A DNA stretch of 64,000 nucleotides, taken from NCBI GenBank assembly GCA_036172245.1, contig JAYWIR010000081.1:62001-126000 (forward strand), written 5' to 3'. The notes beneath the pieces were generated by a model. It was not told the origin of the DNA, made no database searches, and worked only from the letters and a program-made list of their open reading frames with translations. A program made the position numbers and the translations under genes. Every line of letters begins with the position of its first letter. Within the stretch, counting starts at the first letter, position 1. Shown here piece by piece: positions 1 through 60,889 of the stretch. The stretch is from Raillietiella orientalis (taxonomy: Eukaryota).

Positions 1-258
1 TTCGAAGATTTGGGAAAGTGGGAAATTCTCTTATTGTGGAGAGTTTGTTCTTTCTGGAATAGGAAGGCCCTGCAAAGTGGAAAGTAGGGTTATGGATAGT
101 ATTTAAACAGCAAATACAAATAGATAAGAGGAAAACACAATAAGGTTAACACAATGGGAAACTGAATTGCTTATTTGACTCTACAGACTGGGCACTAATG
201 TGTTCTGTGATGAAATGTGAAAAGGAGTGGTGATGTTTTGTGATTTACTTTTGTCATT

Positions 259-756
259 CTAGTATTCGTCTTGAGGTAATCTGAAATGCAGCGAGTTTAT
301 TATTATGAAAACTGACTGCAATGTTTTGTAGATGTCAAAGCAAAGAAAGTTCTTGGAAATTCTAATATGGAATTGCTGATATGGAGACTGCCTTTTCAGA
401 GGCTCGGCTGCAGGCTGTACCTCCTCATGCTGCCTCAGTCTCACGGCCCTTGGAAGCCTACGTTCAAATTTTCTGATAGCCTCGTATAATTTCGATCTAA
501 TGTCCGCTACACGATCTGTTCCGAGTGTTGGGGTTATCATTTCAATGGGTTTTAGCGAAAGTTCTTTCGGCACCTTCGAGCAAAAGGCCTCCCACTCGGG
601 TGAGAAGCCCTCTTTCGACTCGATGGCCTGTTGAGACATATGGGGTGAGAGGCATAGTGCTGATTTAGGGTACACGTTGAGCATGAAGGATCCGAGTCGT
701 CCTAGGGTTGAATCGGCTTCGGAATCATTGAAATTTGTACGAGCCTGGCCAGTCAA
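259..756 (-). CDS. Orphan ORF (165 aa, TTG start) of unknown nature, possibly a decayed viral or mobile gene together with ORF 768..980
   Basis: Long open frame in AT-rich DNA; no motif recognised. Confidence 0.2.
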   Translation of the reverse strand: MTGQARTNFNDSEADSTLGRLGSFMLNVYPKSALCLSPHMSQQAIESKEGFSPEWEAFCSKVPKELSLKPIEMITPTLGTDRVADIRSKLYEAIRKFERRLPRAVRLRQHEEVQPAAEPLKRQSPYQQFHIRISKNFLCFDIYKTLQSVFIIINSLHFRLPQDEY

Positions 757-1339
757 TTATCTTGCTCCTATGTGGTAAAATTTTGCATTAAGCATAATGC
801 CTGCTTACGCCTCTCCCAAGAAGGCGTTAAATTTTCCTTGTTGAAATTGATAAGAGTAGTAACGGAGTTTTCCAGACTTGCATCTTTCAGTTTGGGCGTT
901 TCTGCTGTGGTATTCGTTTGGAGTGGAATGTCATGCATTGAAGTGTACTGTGATATTGTTGCATGAAAAAATTCCAACATGCAACTATTTACTCATTGCT
1001 GATAGTTTAAATTATTCTCATGGCAATTATGATGATAGAAAGTCTGCAGTTATTCAATGTTTGAAGCTAAATCAAATTCTTTGGATCTTTAACATGATGT
1101 GTTATGAATCTTGATTTATAATTTCAACTTTTTTGAGGTTTGTGACAGATATTGCACTGAAAGTTGACTGTGCATAAATTTCCATACAGCAAAGGCAAGA
1201 TTTTTTCTTTTTCTTTTGCTAATCGGTATGCTTGGAATCAGAAGTTCCGAAATATGTTGCCTACCCATCTCACTGAACTGCAAATTGTTTTCTTGAAAAG
1301 CATTTGTTAGTATCCTTGGCCCTCACCCAAGTCATCATT

Positions 1340-1845
1340 GTGAATGTGGTGAGGGGGTTGGGGTGTGCTCTGCTTCGTGTAAGGCGGAAGCATTCTTTTA
1401 CAAGATTTATGTTTTTACTATAAAATTTGGTGTGGTTGTTGAGTATGAAGAGTTCGTCGGCGCCATCTTCTATGAGTTGGAGTATCTAGCGGATAGATGA
1501 TTTGCGATTTGGCTTACCACGTCTTGGTAGGCCAAAAATTGGCTCGTAGGATTCGTGTAGTTTCCCGAATATCCAAGCTTGCTTGTCTTCTTTAGTGAAA
1601 TACCGTAAGCTTCTCTGCGGACTGCCTCTAGCTTTTTCAAGATGACTTTTTTGGAAAGTTTTTCTTTTTAATCCTGGTAGTGTTCGAGGTTCTTTTAGCT
1701 GGAAGAATCCTTGAAGGTGTGGTGTTCCGGTTTTTGCGATCTCTTTGCCTATGCATGCAAAGAAGCAGTTAAGTCGGCACTAGTTGTTGAGTTCTTTTAA
1801 GTCGTCTTCGGTAAAGCACCAGTTGAAGAAGAGTGCGTAAGGCAT
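1340..1845 (-). pseudogene. rep: Degenerate N-terminal half of a CRESS-virus Rep (virus 2)
   Basis: Manual translation from ATG 1845: MPYALFFNWCFT...IGKEIAKTGTPHLQGFFQL...HLEKARGSPQRSLRYFTKED...ILQLIEDGA...KFYSKNINLVKECFRLTRSR. RCR motifs I/II/III are present and colinear with the Rep at 4015. There is an internal stop and no helicase half. Confidence 0.9.
1486..1517 (-). other. Putative rep intron of virus 2 (GTAAG...TAG, 32 nt)
   Basis: Same position as the virus 1 intron (YQDV|ILQLI); canonical ends. Confidence 0.65.
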
Positions 1846-1897
1846 TCTGAAATTCACTGTAAGTGCGACTTGTTTGTGGTTGTCTGCGTGTTGGTAT

Positions 1898-3493
1898 TTA
1901 TACTGCGTAACTGCGCAGAAGATGCAATCTGGTCAATAGTATTACCCAGATTGCATGCAGCTGACAAGGCAAAACCTTGGGAAAACCTTGGCAAAACCCG
2001 GCTTCTTCAGCGAGCATCATAACTCCCAAGCAGCCCTTGCTGACCGGACCGTATGGATATTCGGTCGAGGAGGCCTGGGTCAAGGGGAGGATTTCCTCTT
2101 TCAGCGCCTTTCGGATGATTTGGTCGAGCGATTGCCAGAGGGCTTTCCGCTTCGAGCCCATTCGGAGGGCGTGCACAAAGGCTAGGAACACAAACGTCTT
2201 TAAGGCGTCCAGCTTTTGCCATGGCGCAAGGGGACAGTCCATCACTTTGGCCACGCTGCCAGTAATGTCTTCGAGCGCATGGCTGTGCATGGCATCGAAG
2301 CCTACGGGCTTTCCTTCGTAACTATATGTACCGCTATCATTGAGCACGGGGATGGGTTCCCCTGTTATGTTGAATTGCTCACGCCCAAGAGTCTTGGGAG
2401 TTCGGGGATCGTAGTGCAGGGACGAGCACTTCTTGGCATTGATGGTGAGGCCCAGGCGAATAGCCATGTAGCGTGCCGCATTCAACGCCGCGTGTAGTGT
2501 TTGTGCGTCCTCAGCGAGGATGACGAGGTCATCCGCGTAAGCGAGCACCTTGATTCTGGGCACGTGGTGTTTGATCCCTTGGCACAGTGGCTCGATTGCG
2601 ATATCAAAAAGCAGTCCGGATAGCGGGCATCCCGGTTTCACGCCCCTACATATGTGTATTGGAGGTGAGAGACCGGCAGACGTTACGATCTGTGTGATGT
2701 TGTCTGTGTGCATTTCGCACACGAGTTCCACGAAACGATCACCGGCACCCGCACATTGGAGGGAACACAAAAGCTGTGAATGGGGGATGGATGCAAATGC
2801 ATCCAGCCAGGCAGCGCACACGGTTCGATGGTGGCGCTTGCTGTATTCGATCAAGTGCGATAGTATGAAATTGTGTTCGAGGACACCATCGAAAGGGAGG
2901 AAGCCCTTTTGGTGTGGGCTGAGAATGTTATTCTGTAAGATCCAGTCCCTCACTCGGCGGGCCACGCACTTGGTAAAGATTTTCCCTATCGTGCGGCTGA
3001 TGATAATCGGGCAGGCCCAAGGGAGCAGGAGTCCTGAGTCATCAATCATCCATGGACACAATTTGGTCGCTTCAGATTTGCTTATGTTTTTGATAATCCA
3101 TCTGTCACTGGACATCTTGGAGTAGTCAGGTTCCCAGTTACTGAAGACTACTATGTGTGGAGGCTCGAAGTATTTGATGGATCCTTGATATTTGGAATGG
3201 AAGATGATTCCGTTTTTAAAGGTCTCTATGAATCCATACTGAACTATTTCTTGGTTGTCCCTTGTGAGGTCTACAACTATAATCCTTTCGCCATGATAAA
3301 TGTGTGCTGCATCAGCTTTTTTGCAGCTGTGCATGTAGATTGCTGATTTTTTAAGATAGAGGAATTTGGCGAAGGTGGTTTTGCCGATTCCTCCTATGGG
3401 GTCGTAGAACCAGTGTATTTTCCTGGGATTTGGTGTGGTTCTGATGATTTTAAGTATGTCCATTTGCCAATTTCTGAGTTGTAGGTTTGCCAT
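1898..3493 (-). CDS. Chimeric ORF: CRESS Rep SF3 helicase fused in frame to a NeSL/Utopia-like RT domain, with a tail read through the virus 2 origin
   Basis: Walker A GGIGKT, Walker B IVVD, motif C VFSN, then HQKGFLPFDGVLEHN, GCPLSG, YADD, LAPWQK in one 531-aa frame. Confidence 0.85.
   Translation of the reverse strand: MANLQLRNWQMDILKIIRTTPNPRKIHWFYDPIGGIGKTTFAKFLYLKKSAIYMHSCKKADAAHIYHGERIIVVDLTRDNQEIVQYGFIETFKNGIIFHSKYQGSIKYFEPPHIVVFSNWEPDYSKMSSDRWIIKNISKSEATKLCPWMIDDSGLLLPWACPIIISRTIGKIFTKCVARRVRDWILQNNILSPHQKGFLPFDGVLEHNFILSHLIEYSKRHHRTVCAAWLDAFASIPHSQLLCSLQCAGAGDRFVELVCEMHTDNITQIVTSAGLSPPIHICRGVKPGCPLSGLLFDIAIEPLCQGIKHHVPRIKVLAYADDLVILAEDAQTLHAALNAARYMAIRLGLTINAKKCSSLHYDPRTPKTLGREQFNITGEPIPVLNDSGTYSYEGKPVGFDAMHSHALEDITGSVAKVMDCPLAPWQKLDALKTFVFLAFVHALRMGSKRKALWQSLDQIIRKALKEEILPLTQASSTEYPYGPVSKGCLGVMMLAEEAGFCQGFPKVLPCQLHAIWVILLTRLHLLRSYAV
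1922..1956 (+). promoter_or_regulatory. CRESS rolling-circle origin stem-loop (virus 2)
   Basis: 11-bp stem ATGCAATCTGG/CCAGATTGCAT around nonanucleotide TAGTATTAC (1937-1945). Confidence 0.93.
1968..1998 (+). repeat. Iteron-like direct repeats AAAACCTTGG (two full, one partial)
   Basis: Adjacent to the origin; GGCAAAACCTTGG also lies next to the virus 1 origin at 4142-4154. Confidence 0.7.
1999..3012 (-). mobile_element. NeSL/Utopia-like non-LTR element copy A, RT portion (3' truncated at virus 2)
   Basis: Colinear with the RT of 9689..12418 from RPIxISRT to LAEEA. Confidence 0.9.
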
Positions 3494-4015
3494 TGGATTT
3501 GGATGTCTTCTGCTTCTTGTTAGTCTGAAGCATTCCTTGACGAAGTTAATATTCTTTGAGTAGAATTTTGTATGCTGTTCTAGGGTGTCGAGTTCTGTTG
3601 CTCCGTTTTTGATAAGTTGTAGTATCTGGAAGTTATGTGTATTAGTTTGGTCAAGTTTTTAAAAAAAGATATGTACCATGTCTTGATAGTCGTTGGTTTC
3701 TTTGTGTTCTTGGATTAGTCCATAGGTCCAAGCTTGGTGGTCTTCTTTGGTGCAGTACCGTAAGTTGCTCTGTGGGCTTCCTTTTGCCCTTTCGAGGTGC
3801 GCTTTTTCAAGTGGTGGTCTCTTCAAACTCGGTAAAGTCCGTGGATCTCGGAGTTGGAAATAGCCCTGTAGATGTGGTGTGCCGGTGCTTGCAGTTTCTT
3901 TTCCGATAACTGCGAATGTGCAGTGTCGTCTGCACCAGTCTTTTATCAGGAGTAGTTCGTTTTCTAAGTAGTTGCATAGGGTGAAGCACCAGTACATGAA
4001 GTGTCCGTAAGGCAT
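3013..4015 (-). CDS. rep: Replication-associated protein (HUH endonuclease + SF3 helicase), spliced; native C-terminal tail at 5269-5232
   Basis: CFTLCN, PHLQG, YCTK; GGIGKT, IVVD, VFSN; the only stop (3659-3661) lies inside a GT-AG intron. Confidence 0.9.
3626..3676 (-). other. Putative 51-nt rep intron (GTACAT...ACTAAT...TTCCAG)
   Basis: Canonical ends and branch-point-like CTAAT; removal deletes the in-frame TAA; position shared with virus 2. Confidence 0.75.
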
Positions 4016-4095
4016 GGTGTGGTTGGTAATTCTGTCGAGGTGAGACTGGTTTGTGCCTCTTGTTGTGGTGGTATAAATACTTGGTAGCTACGCAG

Positions 4096-4133
4096 TAGAT
4101 GCTATCTGGTTAGTATTACCCAGATAGCATCTA
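4096..4133 (+). promoter_or_regulatory. CRESS rolling-circle origin stem-loop (virus 1)
   Basis: 14-bp perfect stem TAGATGCTATCTGG/CCAGATAGCATCTA with TAGTATTAC at 4111-4119. Confidence 0.95.
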
Positions 4134-4300
4134 GCTTATTCGGCAAAACCTTGGAAATTGTGTCAGATTGCAAGTTTTTTATGAGGGTGTCTGGTTCATG
4201 TCCGCAGTCGTGGAGGACTTAGGAATGCGGAACAAGATGTACTTGTCCACGTGTGGAGGTCGTGGCATGATCCGACGTCGTGGAAGACTTAGGGAGTCGG

Positions 4301-5194
4301 ATGGCGTGTCGCCACCAGCCTCATAGTGTAGGGGGGAAGGGGCTCTATGTAGCTCGCAGCGGCTATTCGACTTTCAAGAAGCCCAGACGTCCGTATAATC
4401 GTCGTCGGCGTTTGCGATTGTATCGCAGTCCGCGAAGTCGTCTGTCTCTTGCGAGGCGCGTGGTATCGCGTGATATAATGTTAAATGCGCAGCATTATGC
4501 ATCGTTGAGGTCTGCTGACGGAGATTATGTAAATTGTTCTTGGATGTTTACGTATTCGGAGAGTGCTGGAAATCTGCAAAGTATACTGACGGAATTGAAT
4601 TTGCAAGAGTTTGGTCGTTATTATCGATATGTAAGGTTGCGTGGAATGTCTATGAAGATCGAACCGCTGTCTTTGGGTTTAACGATAGGAAATATGGCCG
4701 AAGAATTCGGGATGAAAGTGTCTTATCGGAATCTTTTATTGTATCAGTCTCACAATCAGGGTGAATTTTTTGGATCGCTTGCAGGAATGCCTGATCACAA
4801 GGTGGAAGATGTGATAAGTGGTCATAAGGAAACGAGCGGCTGTTTAGTTCGTTATTTCGGTGTTCGTGGAATACGGCTGTATTCCAGGGCGTATATAAGG
4901 AAGGATATGCATTGTTATGGAGGGAATTTGGAGCGTTATGTGCGTTGTACTTGGGTTGATTGTGGTTTTGGTTCTCGTTTGGATCAAGAGTTGCTGGTGG
5001 AAATGTTTATGAATCGTATGCATGTGATGAAGCATATGTCAGGTATGGATATCCCAGATTCGATAAAGCAAGGTTGTCAGTCTGGTGTATGTCCTAAAAA
5101 TGGATTGTTAACTCAGGGTTGGCCTATTTACAGACTGACTCGAACGTTTTATGTGGAATTCAAACATCTAAGAGACCCTACCCTGTATACTTGA
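4301..5194 (+). CDS. cap: Putative capsid protein (297 aa from ATG 4301; GTG 4280 alternative)
   Basis: Arg-rich N-terminus (RRPYNRRRRLRLYRSPRSR), FGRYYRYVRLRG motif, divergent from rep across the origin. Confidence 0.85.
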   Translation: MACRHQPHSVGGKGLYVARSGYSTFKKPRRPYNRRRRLRLYRSPRSRLSLARRVVSRDIMLNAQHYASLRSADGDYVNCSWMFTYSESAGNLQSILTELNLQEFGRYYRYVRLRGMSMKIEPLSLGLTIGNMAEEFGMKVSYRNLLLYQSHNQGEFFGSLAGMPDHKVEDVISGHKETSGCLVRYFGVRGIRLYSRAYIRKDMHCYGGNLERYVRCTWVDCGFGSRLDQELLVEMFMNRMHVMKHMSGMDIPDSIKQGCQSGVCPKNGLLTQGWPIYRLTRTFYVEFKHLRDPTLYT

Positions 5195-5269
5195 AAAATG
5201 GAAAACTTGCAATGGAATGTACTTTTATTTATCAACTTCTGGTGAGGGGGGTGACAAAGTGGAGCATGT

Positions 5270-7540
5270 GAAACTGAGTTATGTCTTCAGTGGCCTGGTC
5301 TTTCGCCTTGGGGATGAGGGTGGTCCTGGATTCTTTCCACTCGGCCGGTATGCGCCGATGGTGGAGGCAGAGGTTGAATATGGCACACAGGAACCGACAG
5401 TCTGGGTCCATTCTGCGGAACGCAGGGTATGCAATCCCATCAGCGCCTGGCGCTGTGTCCTCACATTGCCTGAGGCAGTTGGCAATCTCGGCCTCCGTGA
5501 AGGGGGAGAGGTCCACTTCCTCATGTTGGGGACCTAGTTGTGCAGTCCATGACAGGGGGCGAAAGCCCGGAGTTGCACCAAACAGGGCGGTGTAGTGTTG
5601 GAGGATTTGATCCGGGTCCGCTGTACAGACATTAGGAGTGCCGTCCATGATTTGGCGGATCGCTCGTCGTCTGTTTCTGCCATGAAAGAGCTGAATATAT
5701 TGCGGTGTCAACACACTCTGCCTGGTGTCAGGCCTCGGCACCGTAAAGGGGCGAAGCCGTAAGTGGTGCTGGATGGTTTGATAGGTCGTCGACAGTACCC
5801 TGATCGCAAGTCCCCAGTGGTCCACCGTTGGGGCTCTATGCGAGAGGTTGTCTAAGGTTTGGACAGCCTCCTGAAGTAGGAGGCGCGACTCAGTTCGCCT
5901 AGGCACTGGTTGTCGTCGCACTGTTTGGGGATGGGTTCCAGTTGTAGGTGAATGGCCGGTCCTCATGCCGGGTGAGTCCCTTCCCTCTTGCTCGCCTTCA
6001 TCTTCTAGCAGGGCGAATCGGGAACCTGTCGCTCGCGACGCCGGAGCGGTGTTCCGCATCCGTGCTGGGCGGGTGCGTTCCCGTACGACACCGCCGTGAG
6101 GCCGAGTGTTTCAGACGGATCTCCTCGGTTGTCTTCGACGGTTCTGGACTGTAGGCCACCCTTGATCTTGAGACGGGTCAGGGGGAGGCGGCGCAGCTGG
6201 TATCAGTGTTGCAACGTCTGGGGATGCCCTAACGCTTGATTCGGCTGTGGCCTTGCTCCGCGGTGGGAGCTGCCTGCGTTCTTTAGCGGACACTGTTGTG
6301 TTCCTGCCCTTGCCGACACCAGGTCACGTTGGCGTTCGTACTCCCGAGCAATCGCGTTTTGCAGCGCGCATGATTTGTCAGTGCCTTTCTGTTGAAGAAG
6401 GCTTGGCCACAGTTTCGCTCTTGGCAGCGGATAGGTGCCGGGGGTATCACTGGGGCCACTGTCGAACCACATCGGTGGTGCCAGACAGGGATGGACATTC
6501 GCTGATTGCAGCGCCGGCAGAGGAGATGGGTTGCACGTACCGGTATGTGATGCGCGGTCTGTATTTGGCGTCTCAAAGACCCCAACAACCGCTTGGGTGC
6601 CATCCCAGAGGTGGCCCATCGGCATCGTGGTAACGGGCATTCCATGATCCGGGTCGTCGGGTGAAAGACAATGAGAACGTCCTCCCACGTCAGGATGGAT
6701 GCTGTGGTGTCTCGGCTTTCCATCGGTGGTGGCTCAAAGCTTACCGTGGGAGCCTGTGCTGGGACCTCTGGAACGGTGTCACCGTTTACGTGGTTCCCGG
6801 GCGAGCGCATTCTAGCATTCGTCCCAGGTGGACGTTGCGGTTCATTCCGCGAGCGCACTTGAGCTTCTGCACGTGCCGTTTGCTCGATTGGCACGCGGTT
6901 CGTGTGTGTCGGGCCTGATGGCTCAACCACTGCACTGCGGCTGCCGTTTCCACGTCCTGGCACACTGTCTCAGTCGCTCAAACCGAGGAATGATGGGTCT
7001 GCGCGGTCTTCGCTTGGACTCGACCGCACGTACGTACGCTGCATGTACGGGAGACGGCGGAGGAGGTGAGCGCGGGACATTGACACGCACTGCAGCCCCC
7101 GGTGACAGCTCTTGCATCAGGTCCATGCCAGTTTGTGAGAGAGGCTACCGTCAGTGTCGAGTGCCCGGATTGAAGGGAGTGTTGCTCTACTCTGGGCAGG
7201 GAGTGAGGAGGATGTTGGGCTGACTGGTTGGCTGAATTGTTCGATTTCGGCGGCACACAATGATGTCACAGAACCACAAGCTGGTATCGTGCTGTTATGC
7301 CGATGAGCTGTGGTGGAGGACTGGCTGCTCCGAGTACGGTGGGCGAGAGTAGCCGTATGTCCTGCGTGCTGGGCGAATTGGGAGGCAGGTGTTCGTCGAG
7401 CAGCGATGTGGCTGTCGATGGAGATTGTGTTGGGCGTGACTCGTCCATGCTTCCAGTCGTCCTTCCAGGCCCTTGTCTGGGCGTGCTCTGGCATGCAGGG
7501 GGCTGAAGCCCAAACCAGTTGCCCAAACCAGTGCCATGCT
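5270..7540 (-). mobile_element. NeSL/Utopia-like element copy A, N-terminal part (zinc fingers, pre-RT region), frameshifted
   Basis: CPLPRC...H, CRRC...HHRC, CQERNC...H; EDTAPGADGI, EWKESRTTLIPK; homologous to 21186..23201. Confidence 0.88.
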
Positions 7541-7544
7541 GCTT

Positions 7545-7679
7545 TCGAACGCTTCGCCTATCGGGAGGAAAGGGAATCTGTTACTTATTCCGGAACCTGG
7601 CATCGAAGAGGAGTGGGAGATTACCCGCGGACGCCGCCTTCGCCGCTGCCTGCCTTCCTCGCGAAGCAGCAGCAGCGTC
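7545..7679 (+). rRNA. Degenerate 28S rRNA fragment (D7 region)
   Basis: GAAAGGGAATCTGTTACTTATTCCGGAACC resembles the conserved 28S core; 7641-7679 is identical to 8679-8717. Confidence 0.6.
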
Positions 7680-8629
7680 TGCAAATTAATTAAAATAAAT
7701 TATTAAATATACAAATAATACGGCCAAAATATTGGGAAACACTCTGGAATGCCAAATCAAGTTAATTGAAACAGCAGAAAATTAGGGAAAATTGATTTAT
7801 ATCCATATGGGAAATTTAAAGGTAATGACGACATATACAGGAGAGCCAGGCCGGATCGATAAAACCTAGTTGTGATATTCACAGTAAGAAGGCAACACGA
7901 GTTTTTTGAAAAATACGAATTAAATTAATGTAAATAGTAATGGATTGATAAATTAGATTTGAAATGTAATCAGACGTGACAATATTCAAGTTGCAGTCGA
8001 AAAAATCGTCTGTATTTACAGAAGATAGAATTTAAGTAAAACAAAGTTTAGTTGAAAATCCCAGTTGCAGATGGCAGTACAGAATTTCTTAGATTTTCAT
8101 TTAAATTTATTGAATTAATTTGAGATTTTGACAAACAAAAAAATGCAAAAATACACGTTTTGTAGTATGAAATAAATTATCAATTATTAATTTAATCCAA
8201 AATATGTCAAATAAAAAAGTTCAAATTTTGGTCGAATGCTTACGCGTTACCAAGTAACGCGATCGCAAGACCAAGTAAATTTTCAATGGATTCTCGAATT
8301 CAAAAGGAATTTCATCAAAGTTAGATCTTCAATTTAGGTAATTTTAACCAGATAATTGAAGACAGGGCTTCAAGTTATCTGGTTATAGAAACGGTGGTAA
8401 ATTGGATTACGAAACTTACTTTCTTACCTTATTGACGAAACCACACAAACACTTCAAATTTATATAATTTGCTATTTTCTGGAGAGAAAATAACAAAATT
8501 TAGTACAAATGTACTCCAATCTTGCAATTGCAAGGTAAAATACACTTCGTGTGACTACGAACACACAAGAAAATTGAAAAAATACAATTTTCCAATGTTA
8601 CCGAGCGGAGCGACGCGGGAACACGTCCG
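7680..8629 (-). mobile_element. Isolated 5' UTR fragment of a copy-B-type element
   Basis: Homologous to about 17730-18608 (shared hairpin, splice donor, TTGCAATTGCAA palindrome, terminal ACACGTCCG). Confidence 0.8.
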
Positions 8630-8678
8630 AACGCTGCGACGGCGGCGGTGACTGACCTAAGAGAGTCACGCGAACCGA

Positions 8679-9496
8679 CGCCGCTGCCTGCCTTCCTCGC
8701 GAAGCAGCAGCAGCGTCGGTTCGCGTCGCGGCGGGGAGGGAATCCGCTTGTCGCTGCAAAGCAAACGAGCTCGGAGACGTCGAACTCGGAACCCCGGGAA
8801 GAGTTTTCTTTTCTGCATAAGGGATTGCCTCGTACCCTGGAATCGGCTCGTACGGAGAGAGGGTCGGGCTCCCGAAGAGCGCCGCGGTTCTTGCGGCGTC
8901 CGGAAGGCTCCGTTCGGCCCTGGAAAATCCGAGTGAGGTAGAACGAATCTCGTGCCAGATCGTACCCATATCCGCAGCTGGTCTCCAAGGTGAACAGCCT
9001 CTAGACGATAGAATAATGTAGGTAAGTGAAGTCGGCAAACCAGATCCGTAACTTCGGGAGAAGGATTGGCTCTGAGGGTCGGGCCGGTCGGGCTTGGCCG
9101 GGAAACGGTAGTGGTTTCCTCGCCGTGGCCGGGAGCTAACGGGAGATCGGCGTTTCCTCGCTCGGTCGGGGCGCGCGCGTGCCGGCGGGTCCGCTCGGGG
9201 TACGCTCAGCGGCTGCCTGCGGCGCTCGCCGGTCGCGCGTCGTCCTTCGTAGCGATACCCGTCTCCCATCCCGGCCTTGCGCGGGATTCCGACCCGCGGA
9301 ACGGCCTCGCTTGACGCTCCGGTCGGCCGTCGCCCGCCGCCGCGCGCCGTCTTCTTCTCGGCGCGCGGCCGGGCGCTCTGGTCCCGGAGCGTTTCGGCCG
9401 GCATGCAGCGATCGACTCAGAACTGGCACGGACAAGAAGAATCCGACTGTCTAATTAAAACAAAGCATCGCGATGGCCGTTGCCGGTGTTGACGCG

Positions 9497-9528
<32 letters not shown>

Positions 9529-9572
9529 AGTGAAGAGATTCAACCAAGCGCGAGTAAACGGCGGGAGTAACT
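8679..9572 (+). rRNA. 28S rRNA pseudogene fragment ending in the helix 69 loop
   Basis: GTCTCCAAGGTGAACAGCCTCTAG, GATCCGTAACTTCGGG, GAATCCGACTGTCTAATTAAAACAAAGCAT, GTAAACGGCGGGAGTAACT. Confidence 0.96.
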
Positions 9573-49091: not shown

Positions 49092-50995
49092 GTGCTCGTG
49101 TGTGCCCGGAGAGGGGAAGTTTTCCAGACGAAACTAAAAAAAAGAAGCGGCGAGGAGATCGCGGCAAAAGACCTGCAGTGGTCCCGTGCAGCAAGACCAG
49201 CTGCCAGGATGCAGGAACATAGAGGAGGAGTGGAGAGACCGTCGTCCCCCATGGAAGCCATGCAGGTAACGTGCGCCAACGGCGAGGTGGCGGCAGGCAT
49301 GCCGAGGATCGCGCCCGCGGCGGGCTTAGCTGCGCCGGCGGCGCCGATGCCAAGGGTCGTGCCCGCGGCGACGACGGCGGAGGTCGTTCCCGCGGCAGCG
49401 ACGCCGAGGATCGTGCCCGCGGCGGGGAAGGTCGCGCCTGCGGCGGCGATGCCGAGGGTGCCACCCGCGGCGGTAACGGCGGCAACATCGAGGTTTGCGC
49501 CTGCGGCGGCGGCGTCCCAGGCGGGACCCGCGGGCGTCCACGCGGTGCAGGGAGAGACGCCATCTTGTTCGGCTGCGGCGTCGCAGCCCTTTTCTTATGC
49601 GTCGGTGGCGGCTGGACAGGCGAGTGTCCACCCACCTAGGAAATTTGGTAAGCCGCTTAGCGGAAAAGTACTAAAAGTGGACCGATCAATAGTCGAAATA
49701 GGCCCCAACGTGAAGCCCATTATCTTCAAGACGGGGCTAATAAAATTTAATAACATCAGGGAGGTCTATTTGTCCCTCGACAAGACGGACATAGACTTTG
49801 ATCGCATTCAGGCGATCATTCCATCGAACAACATGTTCACAGTCTTTACAGACTGTGAAAACATTAGAGAGCGATTGATCCAGAAGGGGATCAATATACA
49901 AGGACGGATAGTTTGTGGTATTGGCGAGATGCCATACACAACCGTCTTTTTAAACGGCATCTCCATCCTCACACCGCAACTAGCGGTGTGGAATTACTTG
50001 GAGCAGTTTGGGGAAGTTCTGGACCTTGATTTCCAGAACTTCTCTGGAAACATATTTTCTGGCGACATGATCGCCAAGATGAGGTTGAGGGAGGGAGCGG
50101 TGATCCCTGGATTGGCCGTTATTGACGAACAATCCCAGGGAGTGAATGTGCGTTACCGGCAACAACCGGTATTCTGCACCGGGTGCAAGCAGTTCGGCCA
50201 CAGGGCCGGCGCTTGCCCAACGTGTCGTTGTTTCCGCTGCGGCAAAGTAGGACATCAAGTCCGAAACTGCAAGCAGCCGGAGGTGTGCTCCTTCTGCAAG
50301 AAACACGGACATGCGAAATGGAGCAGTCCGGAGTTTGAAAACTGCAGAAGGATTCGAGGTCTCTCTCCCGTGAGAGAGAGAAACATCAAGGTGGCCGAAC
50401 AGCCTCAGAAGGCAGGAATTCAGAAAAAAGTGAAAGAAGCCGTCCCGGTGTCGGCGGACGGCTTCATAGAAGTGGGAAAGAAGGGAAAAAGCAGGATGCT
50501 CCTCAAGGAGCAAGGAACTCCTCAAATCCTGGAGCAGCAGAGCAGGAAGGCGAGAAGATGGAGGTAGCGCAGGAAAGCGTGAAGGAAGAGAGACAGGAAG
50601 CCACTAAAGTGTCGCAGGAGGCTCTGCAGACTACGGAGGATTTGGCAACACTGGCGAAGGAGATCATAGAGGTGCAGAGCGGTCCTCAGCAAGAGAAAAT
50701 CTTGCAGAAGATCTGCACTGCACAAGAGAACATCAACCAGGTGGTGGAGGTCGCTGAACGCGAGAAGCTAGAGGAACAGCTTTTCGACGTGAAGGCGAAC
50801 TTCTGCGCCAAGGTCGAAATAGAGGCGCTATCTCGAAAACTGATCGCGCAGGCGGAACACTCTACGGAGGAGGCGGAAATTACCGACCTCACAGGTACGG
50901 AGTGTGACGCCGGCAGCGAGAAGCACGCTGCTTCTTCATTGTCTGGAAGAGCACCCTCTCTCAGACAGAAGAAGCTCAGGAAGGCCAAAAAATAG
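49092..50995 (+). CDS. Family Y ORF1 (Ala/Pro repeats, three CCHC-type knuckles, acidic helical tail); frameshift near 50540
   Basis: CTGCKQFGHRAGAC, CFRCGKVGHQVRNC, CSFCKKHGH. Confidence 0.85.
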
Positions 50996-51008
50996 GTCTT
51001 CCCCTTTT

Positions 51009-54000
51009 ATGGCCTCTTCCCTATCGACCGCCAGGAGGATAAACATCGCCTCCTGGAACGTAAACGGTGTGGTCGACCAGGGAAAAAGAAGAAGGATTGT
51101 GCGGACCATCGCACAACAAGACATTGTGTGCCTGCAGGAGACCCACAGGATGGGTCTGGAGATAAGCCAGCGAATGGAACGGCGATTCAACGGGCAGATG
51201 TTCGTCAACGAAGGAGAACGGAACACGAAGGGTGTGGCGGTGCTAATAAAGAACCACTTAGCCCCCACTATTCTGGAAGTGTTCTGTCCCCAACCCGGAC
51301 GAATCATCGGCGTGCGCCTGGCGTTGTCAGCGACTGTTCACCTTATCCTGGTGAACGTGTACGGGCCGCACAGGCTAAAACATCGTTGTGCGGAGGCGCT
51401 GCATGCAACACTCCGGCAAAAGGTCGCCCCTAAGGACGTCGTGATTGTTGCTGGCGATCTCAACATCTTGGATGAGATCATTCATTCGGAAGACGCCAGA
51501 GAAAGGACGGCGTATCGACGGCTATCCGAGGAGTTCGGACTGGTCTGGCGAACAGCAGGCCACAAGCCAATCGATCACGTCCTGCACAGCACCGAACTTC
51601 GGAAACGCAACCAGGGGTTTCGCGACACTATGACTACGGTGTCCGATCACCCCCTCGTGCGGTTTTCCCTAAGAACGGAGAATCCTCGGCGGAGGCAAGG
51701 CACCAGGGCAGCGCTCATCAGCATGCCCGCCTGGTTCGAAACCCATCCCGGACATCAGGCTGTCCTGGAGGCGATTCTGAGGGCAACAACAATCCGAAGA
51801 GTCGTCGACTGGGACAGCCTGAAACACGGGATACACCTGTTTGCGAACATGCAGTTCGGGGATAGGCGCTTGAGGCAAGAGGCGTACCGGGAGCTGCACA
51901 TCCAAGATCGCTCCCTCTCAAAGTACTTCGATCAGTACGAGAGTCTGTACGTCCTCAATAACATAAAAGGGGAAGTCGGCGTGCTGGAGAAGAGAAATCT
52001 GGCAACAGATATCTTCTGCAGCCAGTACGACGGCCAAAAGCGACAGTGGTCTAAGGATATCGTGGATGCCTTTCACAGGGATTACACGAAACACTTCAGG
52101 CGACAACAGCTGTGTCGCTCTAGTCAACAGGCCTTCTTGAGCTATCTCGAGAAGAGGACCGACGACCTCCAGCGGAACAGACTGAAGGAGGAGTTCTCCG
52201 AAGAAAAGGTGAAGACTGCGTTTGGGCAACTTCGCAAGGACGTGGCAGCGGGCCTTGACAGTGTACCCATCACGCACTATCAGCGGTACCTGCACGCCTA
52301 CCTGCGCTTGTTCCACCAGTTGACCCTCTGCATCCGAGAAGAAGGAAGACTCCCGGAATCCTTCTACGAGGGTAGGATGAGATTGCTAGCGAAAGGAGGC
52401 GACTCTACCCAGATCGCCCAATGGAGGCCAATCTCGATCTTAAACTACGATGCCAAGTGGTTGGCGAAGATCTGGTCCAACCGCTTAGGCAAGGTCATGT
52501 CGAGGCTGATCTCTCCGGTCCAGACATGTGCAGTCCCAGGACGACACATGTCGGACAATGTCAAGTGTGAGCAGGCAACTGTTGTACTCAGTCGATACGT
52601 CGGCAAGAACCTGGTGCTGGTGTTCACTGACATCGAGAAGGCTTTCGACTCCATCGACCACGGGATGCTGCTGAATGTTCTGGAGAAGCTAGGACTTCCG
52701 GAACACTTCAGCAACTTCGTGAGGGCGGTACTCCAGAACCAGTACTGCCGGATCAAGATCAACGGCCAGGAGACGGCAGCAATCAGGATGGAACGAGGAG
52801 TCCGACAGGGCGACTCGCTAAGTCCGATGCTGTTCGTCATCTATATGGAGGTGTTGTCGTCCTTTATCGAGAAGAGCGGACGACTAAGCGGGATTACCAT
52901 CGATAGCCAGCGTCTTACCCATCTGGCATACGCCGATGATCTACTCTTTTTCATAAAGGAAGAGAAAAATCAGCGTGCGTTTCTGAATGTGGTGGACCTG
53001 ATGGAACAGGGCTTGGGCTTAAAAATCAATTCCCAGAAGAGCCAGCTTCTGCGCGTCGGAATACTGGATCTCTCCACTCTAACGGGTAGTGGATTCCGTA
53101 CGGTGGACACGGCCAAGTACCTGGGAGTCTACATCGGCGACGGCTCTGCGTCGAAGCTGCTGTGGAAGGAAATCCTGGGGAAAACGGCCAAGGAAGCAGC
53201 CAAGTACACTCGAACGGACCTTGGGATAAAGCGAAAGGCCAACATATGGAACGGAGTACTCCTTCCGAAAGTGCTCTTCGGGGCGGCCTTCGCGAGGATG
53301 AACAAGGACACTACTAGGGAGTTCGACAAGCTGCAAAGAAAAACACTCTGGGGCCACTATCGCCCAAGAGTAAGACTGAAACCCCTGTGTGTCCCAGGGA
53401 AGAAGGCGGTTCCGGGATGAAGTCGCTTGCAGATTCCATGGAAATCATGGATACGCGACACATCCTGGACATTGCCACTTACTGATATGAGCGGCCGTAT
53501 GCGGAGCACAGGGCCTACGCGTTGTTGCTTAACAACTCGAAAGGCCTGATGACTGCGCTGCTAGGCAAAGTAGGGGAATGGATAACAATCGACCCGACCT
53601 GGAGGAGGAAGCAACGGCTGGTGCGGAAGCAGCAAATCAAGATCGTGCCGCGAAGCAGGGAACTCTGGCAGGACGAGTCCAGCCTGGTGATCCCTTGGTT
53701 GCTTCCTGTCCCGCCGGACACGAGAAGCTGGATCTACCAGCGGTCCAGAGTTACCCTACTGCAAATCCAGGAGTGGAGGCGAGGAGGCTACCTACATCAA
53801 ACACGTATACTTCGGTATACAGAGATGATGTTAGGAAGGTTTACCCACAGGACCCGCGAAGTGTGGTTCAACCACAACGACTTCGCATGTTCGAGGGTAA
53901 CGAGAACAAACCTCCGAAGGCTTATCCAAGAAAACGACCGTGACACCAGTGCCGTCCAGGAAGCCACCGAACGCTACGGGAGTGAACGGTTCAACCTGTT

Positions 54001-58599: not shown

Positions 58600-60800
58600 A
58601 GCGCGTGACCCACAGCTTCGAAAACAATTTGACGTCCGTATTCACTGATGTGATCGGACGCCAGTTGTTGAGTTCTCGCATTTTCCCTCCTTTCGGTAGG
58701 AGACGCACCCTCGCTGAGCGGAAGGAAGAAGGGACATCGCCCGTCACCCTCATCAGCGTCGAGTTTCTAAACACCAGTGGGGCGAGTTCCGCCGCGAAGC
58801 TCTTATAGAACTAAGCGTGCAGTCCGTCCTCACCTGGAGTCTTCCGTCTTTTGAGTCCTGCGATGGCGTAAGAAACTTCCTCCAACGCAAAGAACTCGTC
58901 GAGACGAGCGCGATCCTCCTCGCCGATGCCATGTGCAGCCCGCAGGAAAAGTAGTTCGGACAGGACTCTTTCCGTCGGGGAATCAGCGTAGAGCAAGGAG
59001 AAGTGACGCTTTAGTGCTCGCCGCACTTCGGCAGGATCCGTGCATTCCCGGCCTTGGTCGTCGAGCAGAATAGCCTCTCCAGACTGCCAGACCTGGCTCT
59101 CGGCCCTCGCCTTTTACTCTGCGAGTTGCCGGAATTCCGCACGTCTCGAGAAGGTGCGCGCCTGCAGAAATGCTCTGCTATTGGCCACGCCTTCCCCGGA
59201 GCTACGTGGTAGCAGGTGCAGGGGGAACCGGTCGCAAAACTCGGGAACCGATCTTTTAAGATGGTCCCAGTCTGCGAGTTCCCGGATGGCAAAGCCGCAA
59301 AGGAACTGGCGAAGATGCTTCGCCGTTTCCGGGTGACTCAGCCAATCCGTCGGCATCCTCCAAACATTGTTTGCAGGTCCCTTGCCCAGAGGGAGTAGCT
59401 CGAACTCCAGCCTATCATGGTCCGATAACGTGGACGGCACACTGCCTCTCCTTCCCATTCGCGAGAGCAGGTTCTCATCCAAGTAGAGGTTAACCACGCA
59501 CATTTCCAGTCCAGGCTCGCCGGCTTCCAAGTTACGCGCGTGCACCGACGCGCCTGCCTCTTCCACAAGCGACCGTTTTGCCAAGGACCGCGTCTCGTTG
59601 GAAAGCTGGCAGACGCTGATGTCCCCTGCGACGAGATGCGCCACTCTTGTTCCGGAGTTTGTAAGCCATTGGCTCTCCAGCACGTCGAAGAACTTGATTC
59701 TTTCGACACGCCGATGAAAGCCGCTCGGCGCGCAGACGTTCGTTACGACGAGGTCGATTGAATCTGACCACTTGAGTTTAAGTTGGCCCATTCGCCCTTC
59801 CTGGTCAAATCGAATGCTGCACACTGCTCCCGCCATCCTACTATTGACGGGAAAACCGACTCCGCACGATTGTGCGGAACCTTCTCGCCAGTACAGGGTG
59901 CCACCCGCTCGCTGTTCCATTTCGGCAACCTCCGCATCGGAAATGTAATGCATCTCCTGAAGGATCGCAAAATCGAAATGTCGCAGGGTGTCTGACACGT
60001 CGCGTTTCTTTGCGTCCCTGCCCATCCCATTGACGTTCCAACAGGCTACGCTGAATCGACAAAAAGAGGCGACTTCCTGCATTAAGGCTGGGAAGGTGAG
60101 CACAGATTTCTCGCCTTGTCCGGCGAGTGGTTACGAGACAGAGCGGTCGATCTCGGAGACTAAACATCTCCATTCGGAGCCTCAAAGCTTGCTGCCGGTA
60201 CCTCGAAGGTGAGGTTTTTTTCCTCTTCTTTGCTATCCAGCAACAGTTTCTCCTCGGCAACCACGCGCTTGCGGGTCTTCGGGCGGCGATTCCGCGGTTT
60301 CGGGTGGTTGTTTCGCTCTGTGCTCTTTTTGTCGGATTCTGGATCAGAATCCGACAGTCAAGGGCTTGCCAGGCGCTGCTGCTGTTTCCCGTAATTAGGG
60401 AAATCGTTCGCTGCTGGTTTGTTAGCGCTTTCTGAAACTGCGGCTGAGAGTTTCGTCCTTCTAGCCGCAGCAGCAGCTTTTCGCTCCATTCGCGAGAGGA
60501 CGACTCCGCAGGAGTAAAGAATCGGAATCTTTTTCTGGGAGGGTTTCGCGGATTTCTTTCGCTCACTCACCTTCACACAGAGCTGCGAAGGCCTCGATGG
60601 TTTCTTTCTAATGATCTTTCTCACCTGCATCCAGCCTTCTTCCTTCGCGTGGCAGTTATTTTTGCCATCCTGAGATAGCGCTGCTTCTACGGATGTAAGA
60701 GGCGTTGCCTTTGCTGCCTCTTGGAGTGCTGCCTGCACGAAGGCGTACGCAAATCCCTTAACGATCGCGAGAGCCTTGCGCACGGGCGGTATCGCCGCCG
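58600..60800 (-). mobile_element. Family X-like copy: ORF1 tail, APE (59114..60103), start of RT
   Basis: CWNVNG, ILQEMH, AGD, SDH, KTPGEDGL, NWRPIT. Confidence 0.85.
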
Positions 60801-60889
60801 CTGAACGAAAGGGAGGCGTGATTATTGCTAGTTTAAAACTATACCCAAAACCACGCCAAGGCAGTGTTCAAAACCACTGCCAAGGCAAT

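What the first reader, a model, noticed from the sequence alone, without database searches (positions are those of the whole stretch)
3013..5269. Intact unit-length CRESS virus circle inserted into a retrotransposon RT with reciprocal in-frame fusions
Seen: removing 3013-5269 rejoins the retroelement as CAG TTT C|GC CCG ATT (QFRPI, matching QFRPIAISRT in copies C and D), with no loss, duplication or obvious microhomology. Circularising the removed piece rejoins rep as ...PWA T|AC ATG (YMLHFVTPLTRS*) followed by AATAAA (5224-5229), giving a 329-aa spliced Rep. Origin and cap are intact. Inference: a single-crossover integration of the dsDNA replicative circle. The break is about 1.1 kb from the nick site, so it is not origin-mediated. 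The virus looks younger than its decayed host element and can be reconstructed completely.
Basis: partly seen in the sequence, partly recalled or inferred. Interest (0 to 1): 0.88.

Follow-up and report, generated by a model that had tools for sequence, protein, structure and literature searches.

The report
Whole CRESS virus inside R2 retrotransposon
A complete-looking copy of a small circular DNA virus sits cleanly inside a ribosomal-DNA jumping gene of an unidentified eukaryote, which links an unclassified virus lineage to a host but is a kind of viral fossil already known.

Summary
Window 3013-5269 (2,257 nt, GC 0.44 against 0.52-0.60 in the flanks) has the parts of a CRESS-DNA virus. Rep lies on the minus strand, with an HUH domain, an SF3 helicase and a 51-nt intron. 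A 14-bp stem-loop carries TAGTATTAC. A 297-codon arginine-rich ORF in the capsid position lies on the plus strand. The piece interrupts the FRPI motif of an R2-clade reverse transcriptase. Three paralogous R2 copies in the window run straight through that site, so the target lost and gained nothing. There is no microhomology.

The best reading is a genuine, fairly recent chromosomal integration of one permuted genome unit, made by end-joining or illegitimate recombination far from the origin.

Caveats:
- "Unit-length" cannot be proven without a free relative.
- The "reciprocal in-frame fusions" are one 1-in-3 coincidence.
- The capsid call is weak.
- No reads or genome were available to test the junctions.

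Whole-genome CRESS integrations are already published for Entamoeba, Giardia and cyprinid fish. This is a new member of a known kind, of moderate interest.

The parts
3013..5269 (.). Integrated CRESS-DNA virus unit, 2,257 nt, circularly permuted
   Evidence: GC is 0.42-0.46 against 0.52-0.60 in the flanks. It is bounded by a continuous R2 RT frame. It has no terminal direct or inverted repeats.
3677..4015 (-). Rep exon 1: HUH endonuclease domain (motif I CFTLCN, motif II PHLQGYF, motif III YCTKE)
   Evidence: Pfam Viral_Rep PF02407, E 2.6e-15, 56.9 bits against cut-off 26. The best solved relative is a circovirus Rep endonuclease domain, 7kii, E 4.9e-14. The invariant columns Q50, G51, Y87, C88 and K90 are kept.
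3626..3676 (-). 51-nt GT..AG intron holding an in-frame TAA (3661-3659)
   Evidence: The sequence shows it. Read through with X at the stop, Rep has an 18-column block (the 17 intron codons to within one residue) that is a complete gap in 12 of 14 homologues and mostly gap in the other two, exactly here. 19 of 50 related viral contigs also have Rep interrupted between the two domains.
3013..3625 (-). Rep exon 2: linker and SF3 helicase (Walker A GGIGKT), cut in its non-conserved C-terminal tail by the integration break
   Evidence: Pfam RNA_helicase PF00910, E 3.4e-5, 24.7 bits against cut-off 21.5. 7,685 library proteins match at E<=1e-3. All 16 invariant columns of a 35-sequence alignment are kept.
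5232..5269 (-). Detached last 12 codons and stop of the Rep frame, now fused behind the 5' part of the RT
   Evidence: ORF 5232..6110 ends here. The codon phase matches that at 3013. This tail is not conserved in relatives.
5224..5229 (-). AATAAA directly after the Rep stop
   Evidence: Read from the sequence.
4096..4133 (+). Origin stem-loop: 14-bp stem with TAGTATTAC (4111-4119) in the loop, on the strand that encodes the capsid-position ORF
   Evidence: DNA fold -14.5 kcal/mol, z -4.67. Inverted repeat I1. 17 of 50 related contigs have the nonanucleotide only on the strand opposite Rep, as here.
4301..5194 (+). Putative capsid gene, 297 codons, arginine-rich N-terminus
   Evidence: It is an open ORF. 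The call rests on position, orientation and size. Pfam Circo_capsid scores only E 7.2e-5, 23.6 bits, below the cut-off of 36.2. No sequence relative was found.
4201..4301 (+). Two 31-nt, internally palindromic direct repeats just upstream of the capsid ATG
   Evidence: the repeat finder family D1, 81% alike, spacing 70. Their function was not tested.
1999..3012 (-). R2-clade retrotransposon copy A, RT part downstream of the FRPI motif
   Evidence: Pfam RVT_1, E 3e-20. 65-68% aa identity to copy B. Copy B's best solved relatives are R2 proteins, E 1.6e-65.
5270..6969 (-). R2-clade copy A, part upstream of FRPI, with at least one frame break between 5822 and 6349
   Evidence: tblastn of copies B and C shows hits in different frames at 5822-5271 and 6960-6349.
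1327..1998 (-). Second, decayed CRESS fragment. It holds an origin stem-loop (TAGTATTAC at 1937-1945), iteron-like AAAACCTTGG repeats, the Rep endonuclease domain with an in-frame TAG (1782-1780), and the start of the linker. It begins where copy A's RT breaks off.
   Evidence: 68% nt identity to 3727-4157. 53% and 68% aa identity to the two Rep pieces. Pfam Viral_Rep, E 3.8e-12. pS 0.81 against pN 0.25 over 165 codons.

Best explanation
A double-stranded (replicative-form) circle of an unclassified CRESS-DNA virus was opened once and joined into a single break in the reverse-transcriptase gene of an R2-clade retrotransposon copy in a eukaryote chromosome. The opening lay in the convergent 3' zone, inside the non-conserved tail of Rep and almost opposite the origin. 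The result is one permuted genome unit.

The joining was homology-independent: classical end-joining of blunt or unprocessed ends, or an equivalent illegitimate single crossover. It was not made by Rep at the origin, and it did not pass through an RNA copy. The event is recent relative to the decay of its surroundings. An earlier, independent integration of a related virus lies 1 kb away in the same R2 copy.

Shown: the anatomy, the exact continuity of the target, and the independence of the two viral pieces. Inferred: the joining mechanism, completeness on the virus side, germline status and age.
For: 1. Viral identity.
- Viral_Rep E 2.6e-15 and RNA_helicase E 3.4e-5, both above Pfam cut-offs.
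- Circovirus Rep endonuclease domains are the best solved matches.
- 7,685 library Reps match at E<=1e-3, and the top 150 are 32-49% identical.
- All invariant Rep columns are kept.
- The origin hairpin carries TAGTATTAC, z -4.67.
- Named relatives are the Dragonfly larvae associated circular virus-10 Rep (41% identity, on a 2,259-nt contig) and a Rep-like protein of a snail genome. Several others lie on contigs of 333-915 kb.

2. Clean insertion. 3 of 3 paralogous R2 copies are continuous across the site to the codon and to the base. There is no duplication, deletion or microhomology.

3. DNA route. The intron is retained, and both strands' genes and the origin are present.

4. Not origin-mediated. 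The nick site is 1,104 and 1,152 nt from the two ends.

5. One unit, not a multimer. There is no terminal redundancy.

6. Against a mis-join.
- The two host flanks are exactly adjacent in the target gene.
- No sequence is shared at the junctions that an assembler could have used.
- An independent, decayed fragment of a related virus lies nearby. Its synonymous difference from the insert is saturated (pS 0.81) while pN is 0.25, so the two diverged as replicating viruses before integration.

7. Relative youth. Rep and the capsid-position ORF have no stops or shifts. Fragment 2 has a stop and is truncated, and the R2 copy has a frame break.
Against: - No genome is held, so junction-spanning reads, empty-site alleles and copy number were not examined.
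- Completeness on the virus side is untested. No relative closer than ~45% Rep identity was found, and none was found for the capsid ORF.
- The 12-codon continuation of Rep across the break has no support from homology. About half of random frames would stay open that long.
- The capsid assignment rests on position, an arginine-rich N-terminus and a sub-threshold Pfam hit. hhalign against the capsids of the 7 nearest same-architecture relatives gave probability 0.45%, and the single-sequence fold was unusable at pLDDT 29.
- Four unprocessed ends are unusual for end-joining. That leaves room for an enzyme-mediated conservative exchange.
- Intact ORFs do not date the event. CpG is not depleted in this host region, so it gives no clock.
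Confidence: 0.62

Rival explanations
1. Enzyme-mediated conservative exchange. A breakage-and-reunion enzyme exchanged strands between the circle and the chromosome without loss of any base. Candidates are a type I topoisomerase, or the viral HUH Rep acting at a cryptic site as in rolling-circle transposition, which also leaves no target duplication.
For: The target has zero loss, zero duplication and zero microhomology. On the plus strand the viral break falls between T and A, as does the Rep nick in TAGTATT/AC, though that is a 1-in-16 match. The break is within 1.1% of the circle's antipode to the origin, in the convergent 3' zone, a post-hoc observation.
Against: No origin-like hairpin or nonanucleotide lies at either junction or across the ends. 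The host site shows no resemblance to the origin. Loss on the virus side cannot be excluded, so 'conservative' is shown for the target only.
Confidence: 0.1
2. Assembly or library artefact. A free viral circle co-sequenced with the host was spliced into an R2 copy by the assembler or by a chimeric read.
For: No reads could be inspected. The region is highly repetitive (R2 copies, rDNA pieces). The viral ORFs are suspiciously intact.
Against: An artefact would need two independent false joins at exactly adjacent host bases, with no shared k-mer at either join. A second, decayed relative 1 kb away shows that this genome region really does take up such viruses.
Confidence: 0.05
3. Real integration but not a complete unit. 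Some viral sequence was lost at the break, so the Rep continuation across the ends is fortuitous.
For: The tail crossing the break is not conserved, and relatives' tails run 0-60 aa. The nearest word-index relative ends right after the DRWIIK motif. No obvious poly(A) signal for the capsid-position gene was seen on either side of the break.
Against: A stop and AATAAA follow within 12 codons. The length of 2,257 nt is within the 2.0-2.5 kb of most related contigs. Both genes and the origin are whole.
Confidence: 0.2
4. Retrotransposon-assisted capture. The R2 reverse transcriptase switched template onto viral nucleic acid during retrotransposition.
For: The insertion lies inside an R2 element. 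R2 reverse transcriptases are known, from general knowledge and not tested here, to jump templates without homology.
Against: The intron is retained. Genes of both strands and the non-transcribed origin are present. The polymerase would have had to return to the very next base of its RNA template.
Confidence: 0.02

Closest known systems
Whole-genome CRESS virus integrations in Entamoeba dispar and Giardia duodenalis (Kinsella et al. 2020, PMC7493932; section 7 read)
   Same: Both Rep and Cap, covering the whole virus genome, lie inside host contigs, and the integrations were used to assign a host to an unclassified CRESS lineage.
   Different: There, exogenous relatives at 73-84% nt identity exist and prove completeness, and one Giardia element is a 10-kb tandem array. 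Here there is a single unit with no known free relative, a spliced Rep, and a mapped base-exact target site inside an R2 element. Those authors assume Rep-mediated integration, whereas here the junctions are far from the origin.
Full-length tandem circovirus genomes in cyprinid fish genomes (Dennis et al. 2019, PMC6372831; passages read)
   Same: These are complete circular ssDNA virus genomes fixed in a eukaryote chromosome.
   Different: Those are multimers of true Circoviridae and are more than 39 My old. Here there is one unit, and the Rep helicase shows no phmmer match to the solved circovirus Rep. The ORFs are intact.
Dragonfly larvae associated circular virus-10 and similar unclassified CRESS genomes from environmental samples
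   Same: It is the nearest named Rep (41% identity over the helicase part). Genome size is similar (2,259 against 2,257 nt). TAGTATTAC-type origins occur in 50 of 80 related contigs, and spliced Rep is likely in 19 of 50.
   Different: Identity is only ~40%. No capsid similarity was detectable. Those are free circles with no known host.
Cycloviruses (family Circoviridae), genome layout recalled from general knowledge
   Same: The layout is ambisense, with the nonanucleotide on the capsid-coding strand, and some have introns in Rep.
   Different: Family membership is not supported. The helicase part has no match to the solved PCV2 Rep, and the capsid hit is below the Pfam cut-off.

Membership tests
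Cressdnaviricota (CRESS-DNA viruses) | Rep with an HUH endonuclease domain (motifs I-III, catalytic Tyr) | tested here: met
   PF02407, E 2.6e-15. The CFTLCN, HLQG and YCTKE motifs are present and all invariant columns are kept. Solved circovirus Rep domains match at E 5e-14 to 3e-9.
Cressdnaviricota (CRESS-DNA viruses) | SF3 helicase domain fused to the endonuclease | tested here: met
   PF00910, E 3.4e-5, above cut-off. 16 of 16 invariant columns are kept, including the Walker A G-K. 4,599 library hits at E<=1e-10.
Cressdnaviricota (CRESS-DNA viruses) | Origin stem-loop with a conserved nonanucleotide | tested here: met
   14-bp stem with TAGTATTAC in the loop, z -4.67.
Cressdnaviricota (CRESS-DNA viruses) | Jelly-roll capsid protein gene | tested here: inconclusive
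   The ORF has the right place, size and basic N-terminus. Circo_capsid scores 23.6 bits against a cut-off of 36.2. No relatives were found. hhalign probability is 0.45%. The fold has pLDDT 29.
Cressdnaviricota (CRESS-DNA viruses) | Small circular ssDNA genome packaged in virions | not testable with these tools
   Only the integrated, linear, permuted form is seen.
Circoviridae | Rep and Cap homologous to those of circoviruses and cycloviruses along their whole length | tested here: not met
   The endonuclease part matches. The helicase part gives no phmmer hit to any solved Rep at E<=1, although full-length PCV2 Rep (7lar) is in the library. The capsid hit is below cut-off. No tree with reference taxa could be built because no named reference set was available.
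Endogenous viral element (germline, inherited) | Viral sequence flanked on both sides by host chromosomal sequence | tested here: met
   Both flanks are halves of one R2 RT gene within a 64-kb stretch of retrotransposons, 28S pieces and a U4 gene. This holds for the assembly only.
Endogenous viral element (germline, inherited) | Present in the germline and shared between individuals or species | not testable with these tools
   No genome is held.
R2 clade of non-LTR retrotransposons (the host element) | RT most similar to R2 RTs, single ORF with a C-terminal CCHC and restriction-like endonuclease, N-terminal zinc fingers | tested here: met
   Copy B against solved structures: R2 proteins at E 1.6e-65 to 4e-46 with 2 stretches, against LINE-1 ORF2p at ~1e-17. 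A CxxC...HxxxC motif and a PD..D..K-like stretch are visible in the translation of copy B, and C2H2 fingers in copy C. Motif naming is from general knowledge.
R2 clade of non-LTR retrotransposons (the host element) | Sense-oriented insertion at the canonical 28S site | tested here: not met
   The 28S pieces are on the plus strand and the R2-like copies on the minus strand. The recalled canonical target motif is absent from the window at up to 2 mismatches. These copies are rearranged, or belong to a relative with other habits.

The most novel reading that the evidence does not exclude
The exchange was conservative on both partners, made by a breakage-reunion enzyme at a fragile point opposite the origin. 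This rDNA-associated block of same-strand R2 copies acts as a recurrent trap for this virus lineage: two independent captures lie in the same orientation in one R2 copy, as in small-RNA-producing clusters that store viral fragments for defence. The intact unit would then be a very recent capture of a virus that still circulates in this host.
Probability: 0.12. Interest if true: 0.75.

Novelty: new member of a known kind. Interest (0 to 1): 0.45.

Why it matters
Most CRESS-DNA viruses are known only from metagenomes and have no host. An integrated copy with both genes, the origin and a spliceosomal intron ties this unclassified lineage to a eukaryotic nucleus. The lineage's nearest named relative comes from dragonfly larvae.

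The junctions can be read to the base because paralogous R2 copies serve as empty sites. That gives one of the few cases where the integration mechanism of a CRESS virus can be argued from sequence. Here the evidence goes against the usual assumption that Rep does it at the origin.

Two independent integrations in one R2 copy raise the question of whether rDNA-linked repeat blocks are preferred or merely tolerant sites.

Tried and rejected
Read-level and genome-level checks
- Sequencing runs: none was listed for 2300-6000, and no RNA holder was listed.
- Own genome: not held.
- Earlier notes of this scan: nothing by place, sequence or words.

Close relatives
- IMG/VR with the Rep helicase part as a single protein: none.
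- Word-index search with Rep: 1 hit at 44% identity.
- Capsid ORF: none in the word index and none in IMG/VR. In metagenomes, one locus (L081) matched only the arginine-rich first 42 residues and was discounted. Among 80 related viral contigs the best was E 0.49.

Capsid structure and profiles
- Capsid fold without an alignment: pLDDT 29, so no fold search was made.
- hhalign to the capsids of 7 relatives: no match.

Other parts of the window
- Window 1-1326: no similarity to the insert, the R2 copies, the rest of the window or the 80 viral contigs. 0 of 6 ORFs hit Pfam.
- Other viral domains: 71 further ORFs of at least 140 aa gave only RVT_1 and Exo_endo_phos.

Ideas dropped
- The R2 endonuclease cut the virus at a 28S-like site. 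The recalled target motif is absent from the window and the geometry does not fit.
- CpG decay as a clock. The observed/expected ratio is ~1 in the host region.
- An 11-nt repeat shared between the origin flank and the Walker A codons (I5). About one such repeat is expected by chance in 2.2 kb.

Literature: the Draupnirviridae paper (PMC10193959, passages read) gave nothing on whole-genome integration.


Full report
WHAT IS THERE

Window 3013-5269 is a 2,257-nt island of GC 0.44 between flanks of GC 0.52-0.60.

Rep. On the minus strand a 142-codon frame (4087-3662) matches Pfam Viral_Rep (E 2.6e-15, 56.9 bits, cut-off 26). The next frame (3658-3014) matches RNA_helicase (E 3.4e-5, 24.7 bits, cut-off 21.5). 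The two are in the same frame, separated by one TAA.

The TAA lies in a 51-nt GT..AG segment (3676-3626). I read the unchanged DNA through with X at the stop and aligned it with 14 homologues. The window sequence then has an 18-column block (the 17 intron codons to within one residue) exactly there; it is a complete gap in 12 of the 14 homologues and mostly gap in the other two. The segment is therefore an intron. 80 related viral contigs were fetched from IMG/VR. In 50 of them both Rep halves could be placed in order, and 19 of those 50 are also interrupted between the domains.

All invariant columns of Rep alignments are kept. These are Q50, G51, Y87, C88 and K90 in the endonuclease part (19 sequences) and 16 columns in the helicase part (35 sequences).

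Origin. The hairpin at 4096-4133 has a 14-bp stem with TAGTATTAC in the loop. It folds at -14.5 kcal/mol, z -4.67, and 0 of 200 shuffles fold as well.

Capsid-position ORF. On the plus strand a 297-codon ORF (ATG 4301, stop 5192-5194) starts with an arginine-rich stretch. Its only database support is a Circo_capsid hit below the cut-off (23.6 against 36.2 bits).

THE FLANKS AND THE JUNCTIONS

The flanks are two halves of a reverse-transcriptase gene on the minus strand (RVT_1 E 3e-20 for the left part). A fuller paralogue in the window (9692-12463) matches solved R2 retrotransposon proteins at E 1.6e-65 to 4e-46, against about 1e-17 for LINE-1 ORF2p.

Three paralogues in the window are continuous across the site. 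The right flank's last residue maps to 11864, 13755 and 21525. The left flank's first residue maps to 11860, 13751 and 21521. One codon lies between them in each. A nucleotide alignment shows the flanks abutting with no gap and no overlap.

The break falls in the codon for the R of the FRPI motif. The bases on either side of the two junctions differ, so there is no microhomology and the boundaries are unambiguous. The insert has no terminal direct or inverted repeats, and no second copy of any of its parts lies at its ends.

In-frame fusions. The Rep codon and the RT codon are both split after their first base, on the same strand. That both chimeric frames stay open is therefore one coincidence with a chance of 1 in 3, not two.

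The Rep tail. Across the break the Rep frame would run 12 more codons to a stop at 5234-5232, followed by AATAAA. Roughly half of random frames stay open that long. The tail after the conserved DRWxI motif is 0-60 residues and unconserved in relatives, and the nearest word-index relative ends right after the motif. At ~40% identity it says nothing either way.

Unit length. "Unit-length" therefore remains an inference. It rests on the presence of all parts, the stop and poly(A) signal just across the break, and a size typical of relatives.

Window 1327-1998 holds a second CRESS fragment on the same strand.
- It has an origin hairpin with TAGTATTAC (1937-1945), two to three iteron-like AAAACCTTGG repeats, an endonuclease domain (Viral_Rep E 3.8e-12) with an in-frame TAG at 1782-1780, and the start of the linker.
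- It begins exactly where copy A's RT stops matching copy B (residue 542, window ~1999).
- Over 165 aligned codons the two Reps differ at 81% of synonymous sites (saturated) but at 25% of non-synonymous sites.

They therefore diverged under selection as viruses. They are separate integrations, not a genomic duplication. What lies left of 1327 is unidentified.

RELATIVES

A full HMMER pass over 1.84 billion representatives found 7,685 Reps at E<=1e-3. The best 150 are 32-49% identical.

A profile search returned 53 proteins.
- Only three carry a name from their source: the Dragonfly larvae associated circular virus-10 Rep (41%, contig 2,259 nt), a "replication associated protein" of Biomphalaria glabrata on a 90-Mb contig, and one "hypothetical protein".
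- Nine others lie on contigs of 333-915 kb, presumably endogenous copies in other eukaryotes.

The helicase part has no phmmer match to any solved Rep, so I do not place the virus in Circoviridae. In 17 of 50 related contigs the nonanucleotide is only on the strand opposite Rep, as here.

The capsid ORF has no detectable relative anywhere I could look. Its single-sequence fold was useless.

MECHANISM

The retained intron, the genes of both strands and the origin exclude an mRNA or retrotransposition route. The ends are 1,104 and 1,152 nt from the nick site, and no hairpin or nonanucleotide lies at the junctions, so Rep acting at the origin did not make them.

One break in the circle and one in the chromosome, joined without homology, give exactly this structure. 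That is either classical end-joining of a linearised replicative form or an illegitimate single crossover, and the two cannot be told apart from the product.

Two features stay unexplained. No base was lost or added in the target. The break lies within 1.1% of the point opposite the origin, in the convergent 3' zone; this is a post-hoc observation. They keep a conservative, enzyme-mediated exchange alive as a minority rival.

An assembly artefact would need two false joins at adjacent bases with no shared sequence. The neighbouring old fragment also shows that such viruses do enter this region. I put the artefact at about 5%, but no reads could be examined.

AGE

The viral ORFs are unbroken. 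Fragment 2 is broken and truncated. The R2 copy has a frame break between 5822 and 6349, although its 650 RT codons next to the insert are still open. "Younger than its surroundings" is reasonable. No clock is available, since CpG is not depleted here.

COMPARISON AND NOVELTY

Whole-genome CRESS integrations are in print for Entamoeba dispar and Giardia (PMC7493932, section 7 read). Tandem full-length circovirus genomes are reported in cyprinid fish (PMC6372831, passages read).

This case adds a new, unclassified lineage with a spliced Rep, a single unit with base-exact junctions away from the origin, and a double hit in one R2 copy. My paper searches listed no report of a CRESS genome inside an R2 element. 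Those searches were few and keyword-based.

VERDICT

This is a new member of a known kind. Interest 0.45.

Noticed in passing
window 1327-1998: A second, decayed CRESS fragment (origin hairpin, iteron-like repeats, Rep endonuclease domain with an in-frame stop) from a different related virus. It has the same orientation and starts where the R2 copy's RT is cut off.
   Followed up: yes
window 1-1326: An AT-rich stretch (GC 0.39) of unknown origin next to fragment 2. It includes a 165-codon ORF at 262-756 (minus strand) and has no similarity to anything searched.
   Followed up: partly
window 8609-9002, 9445-9601, 18883-20649: Three pieces of eukaryotic 28S rRNA on the plus strand (Rfam 116-926 bits) interleaved with R2-like copies that all lie on the minus strand. 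One piece ends at GGGAGTAACT (9572), close to the classical R-element insertion region as I recall it.
   Followed up: partly
window 9689-26700: At least four R2-clade copies or fragments (9689-12463, 12804-16553, ~20657-22958, 25008-26690), all on the minus strand and 44-73% identical in protein. Copy C carries a long Pro/Ser/Thr-rich N-terminal region with C2H2 fingers.
   Followed up: partly
window 7826-8537 and 17809-18515: AT-rich repeats, 65% alike, each lying just upstream of a 28S piece. A 39-nt exact repeat also occurs at 7641-7679 and 8679-8717.
   Followed up: no
window 60772-60909: A full-length U4 spliceosomal snRNA gene (Rfam 91.4 bits) among APE-type LINE fragments (50844-53417, 59117-60130, 62686-63531).
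   Followed up: no
window 4201-4231 and 4271-4301: Two 31-nt, internally palindromic direct repeats between the origin and the capsid ATG. They could be regulatory or Rep-binding elements.
   Followed up: no
whole window: The CpG observed/expected ratio is ~1 at GC 0.54, so this repeat-rich region shows no methylation-driven CpG loss. No ordinary host protein gene was recognised in 64 kb.
   Followed up: partly
proteins P0153, P0155, P0157, P0160, P0173, P0200: Six different Rep-like proteins of this lineage come from one 825-kb ENA contig, which suggests a multi-copy endogenous cluster in another eukaryote.
   Followed up: no
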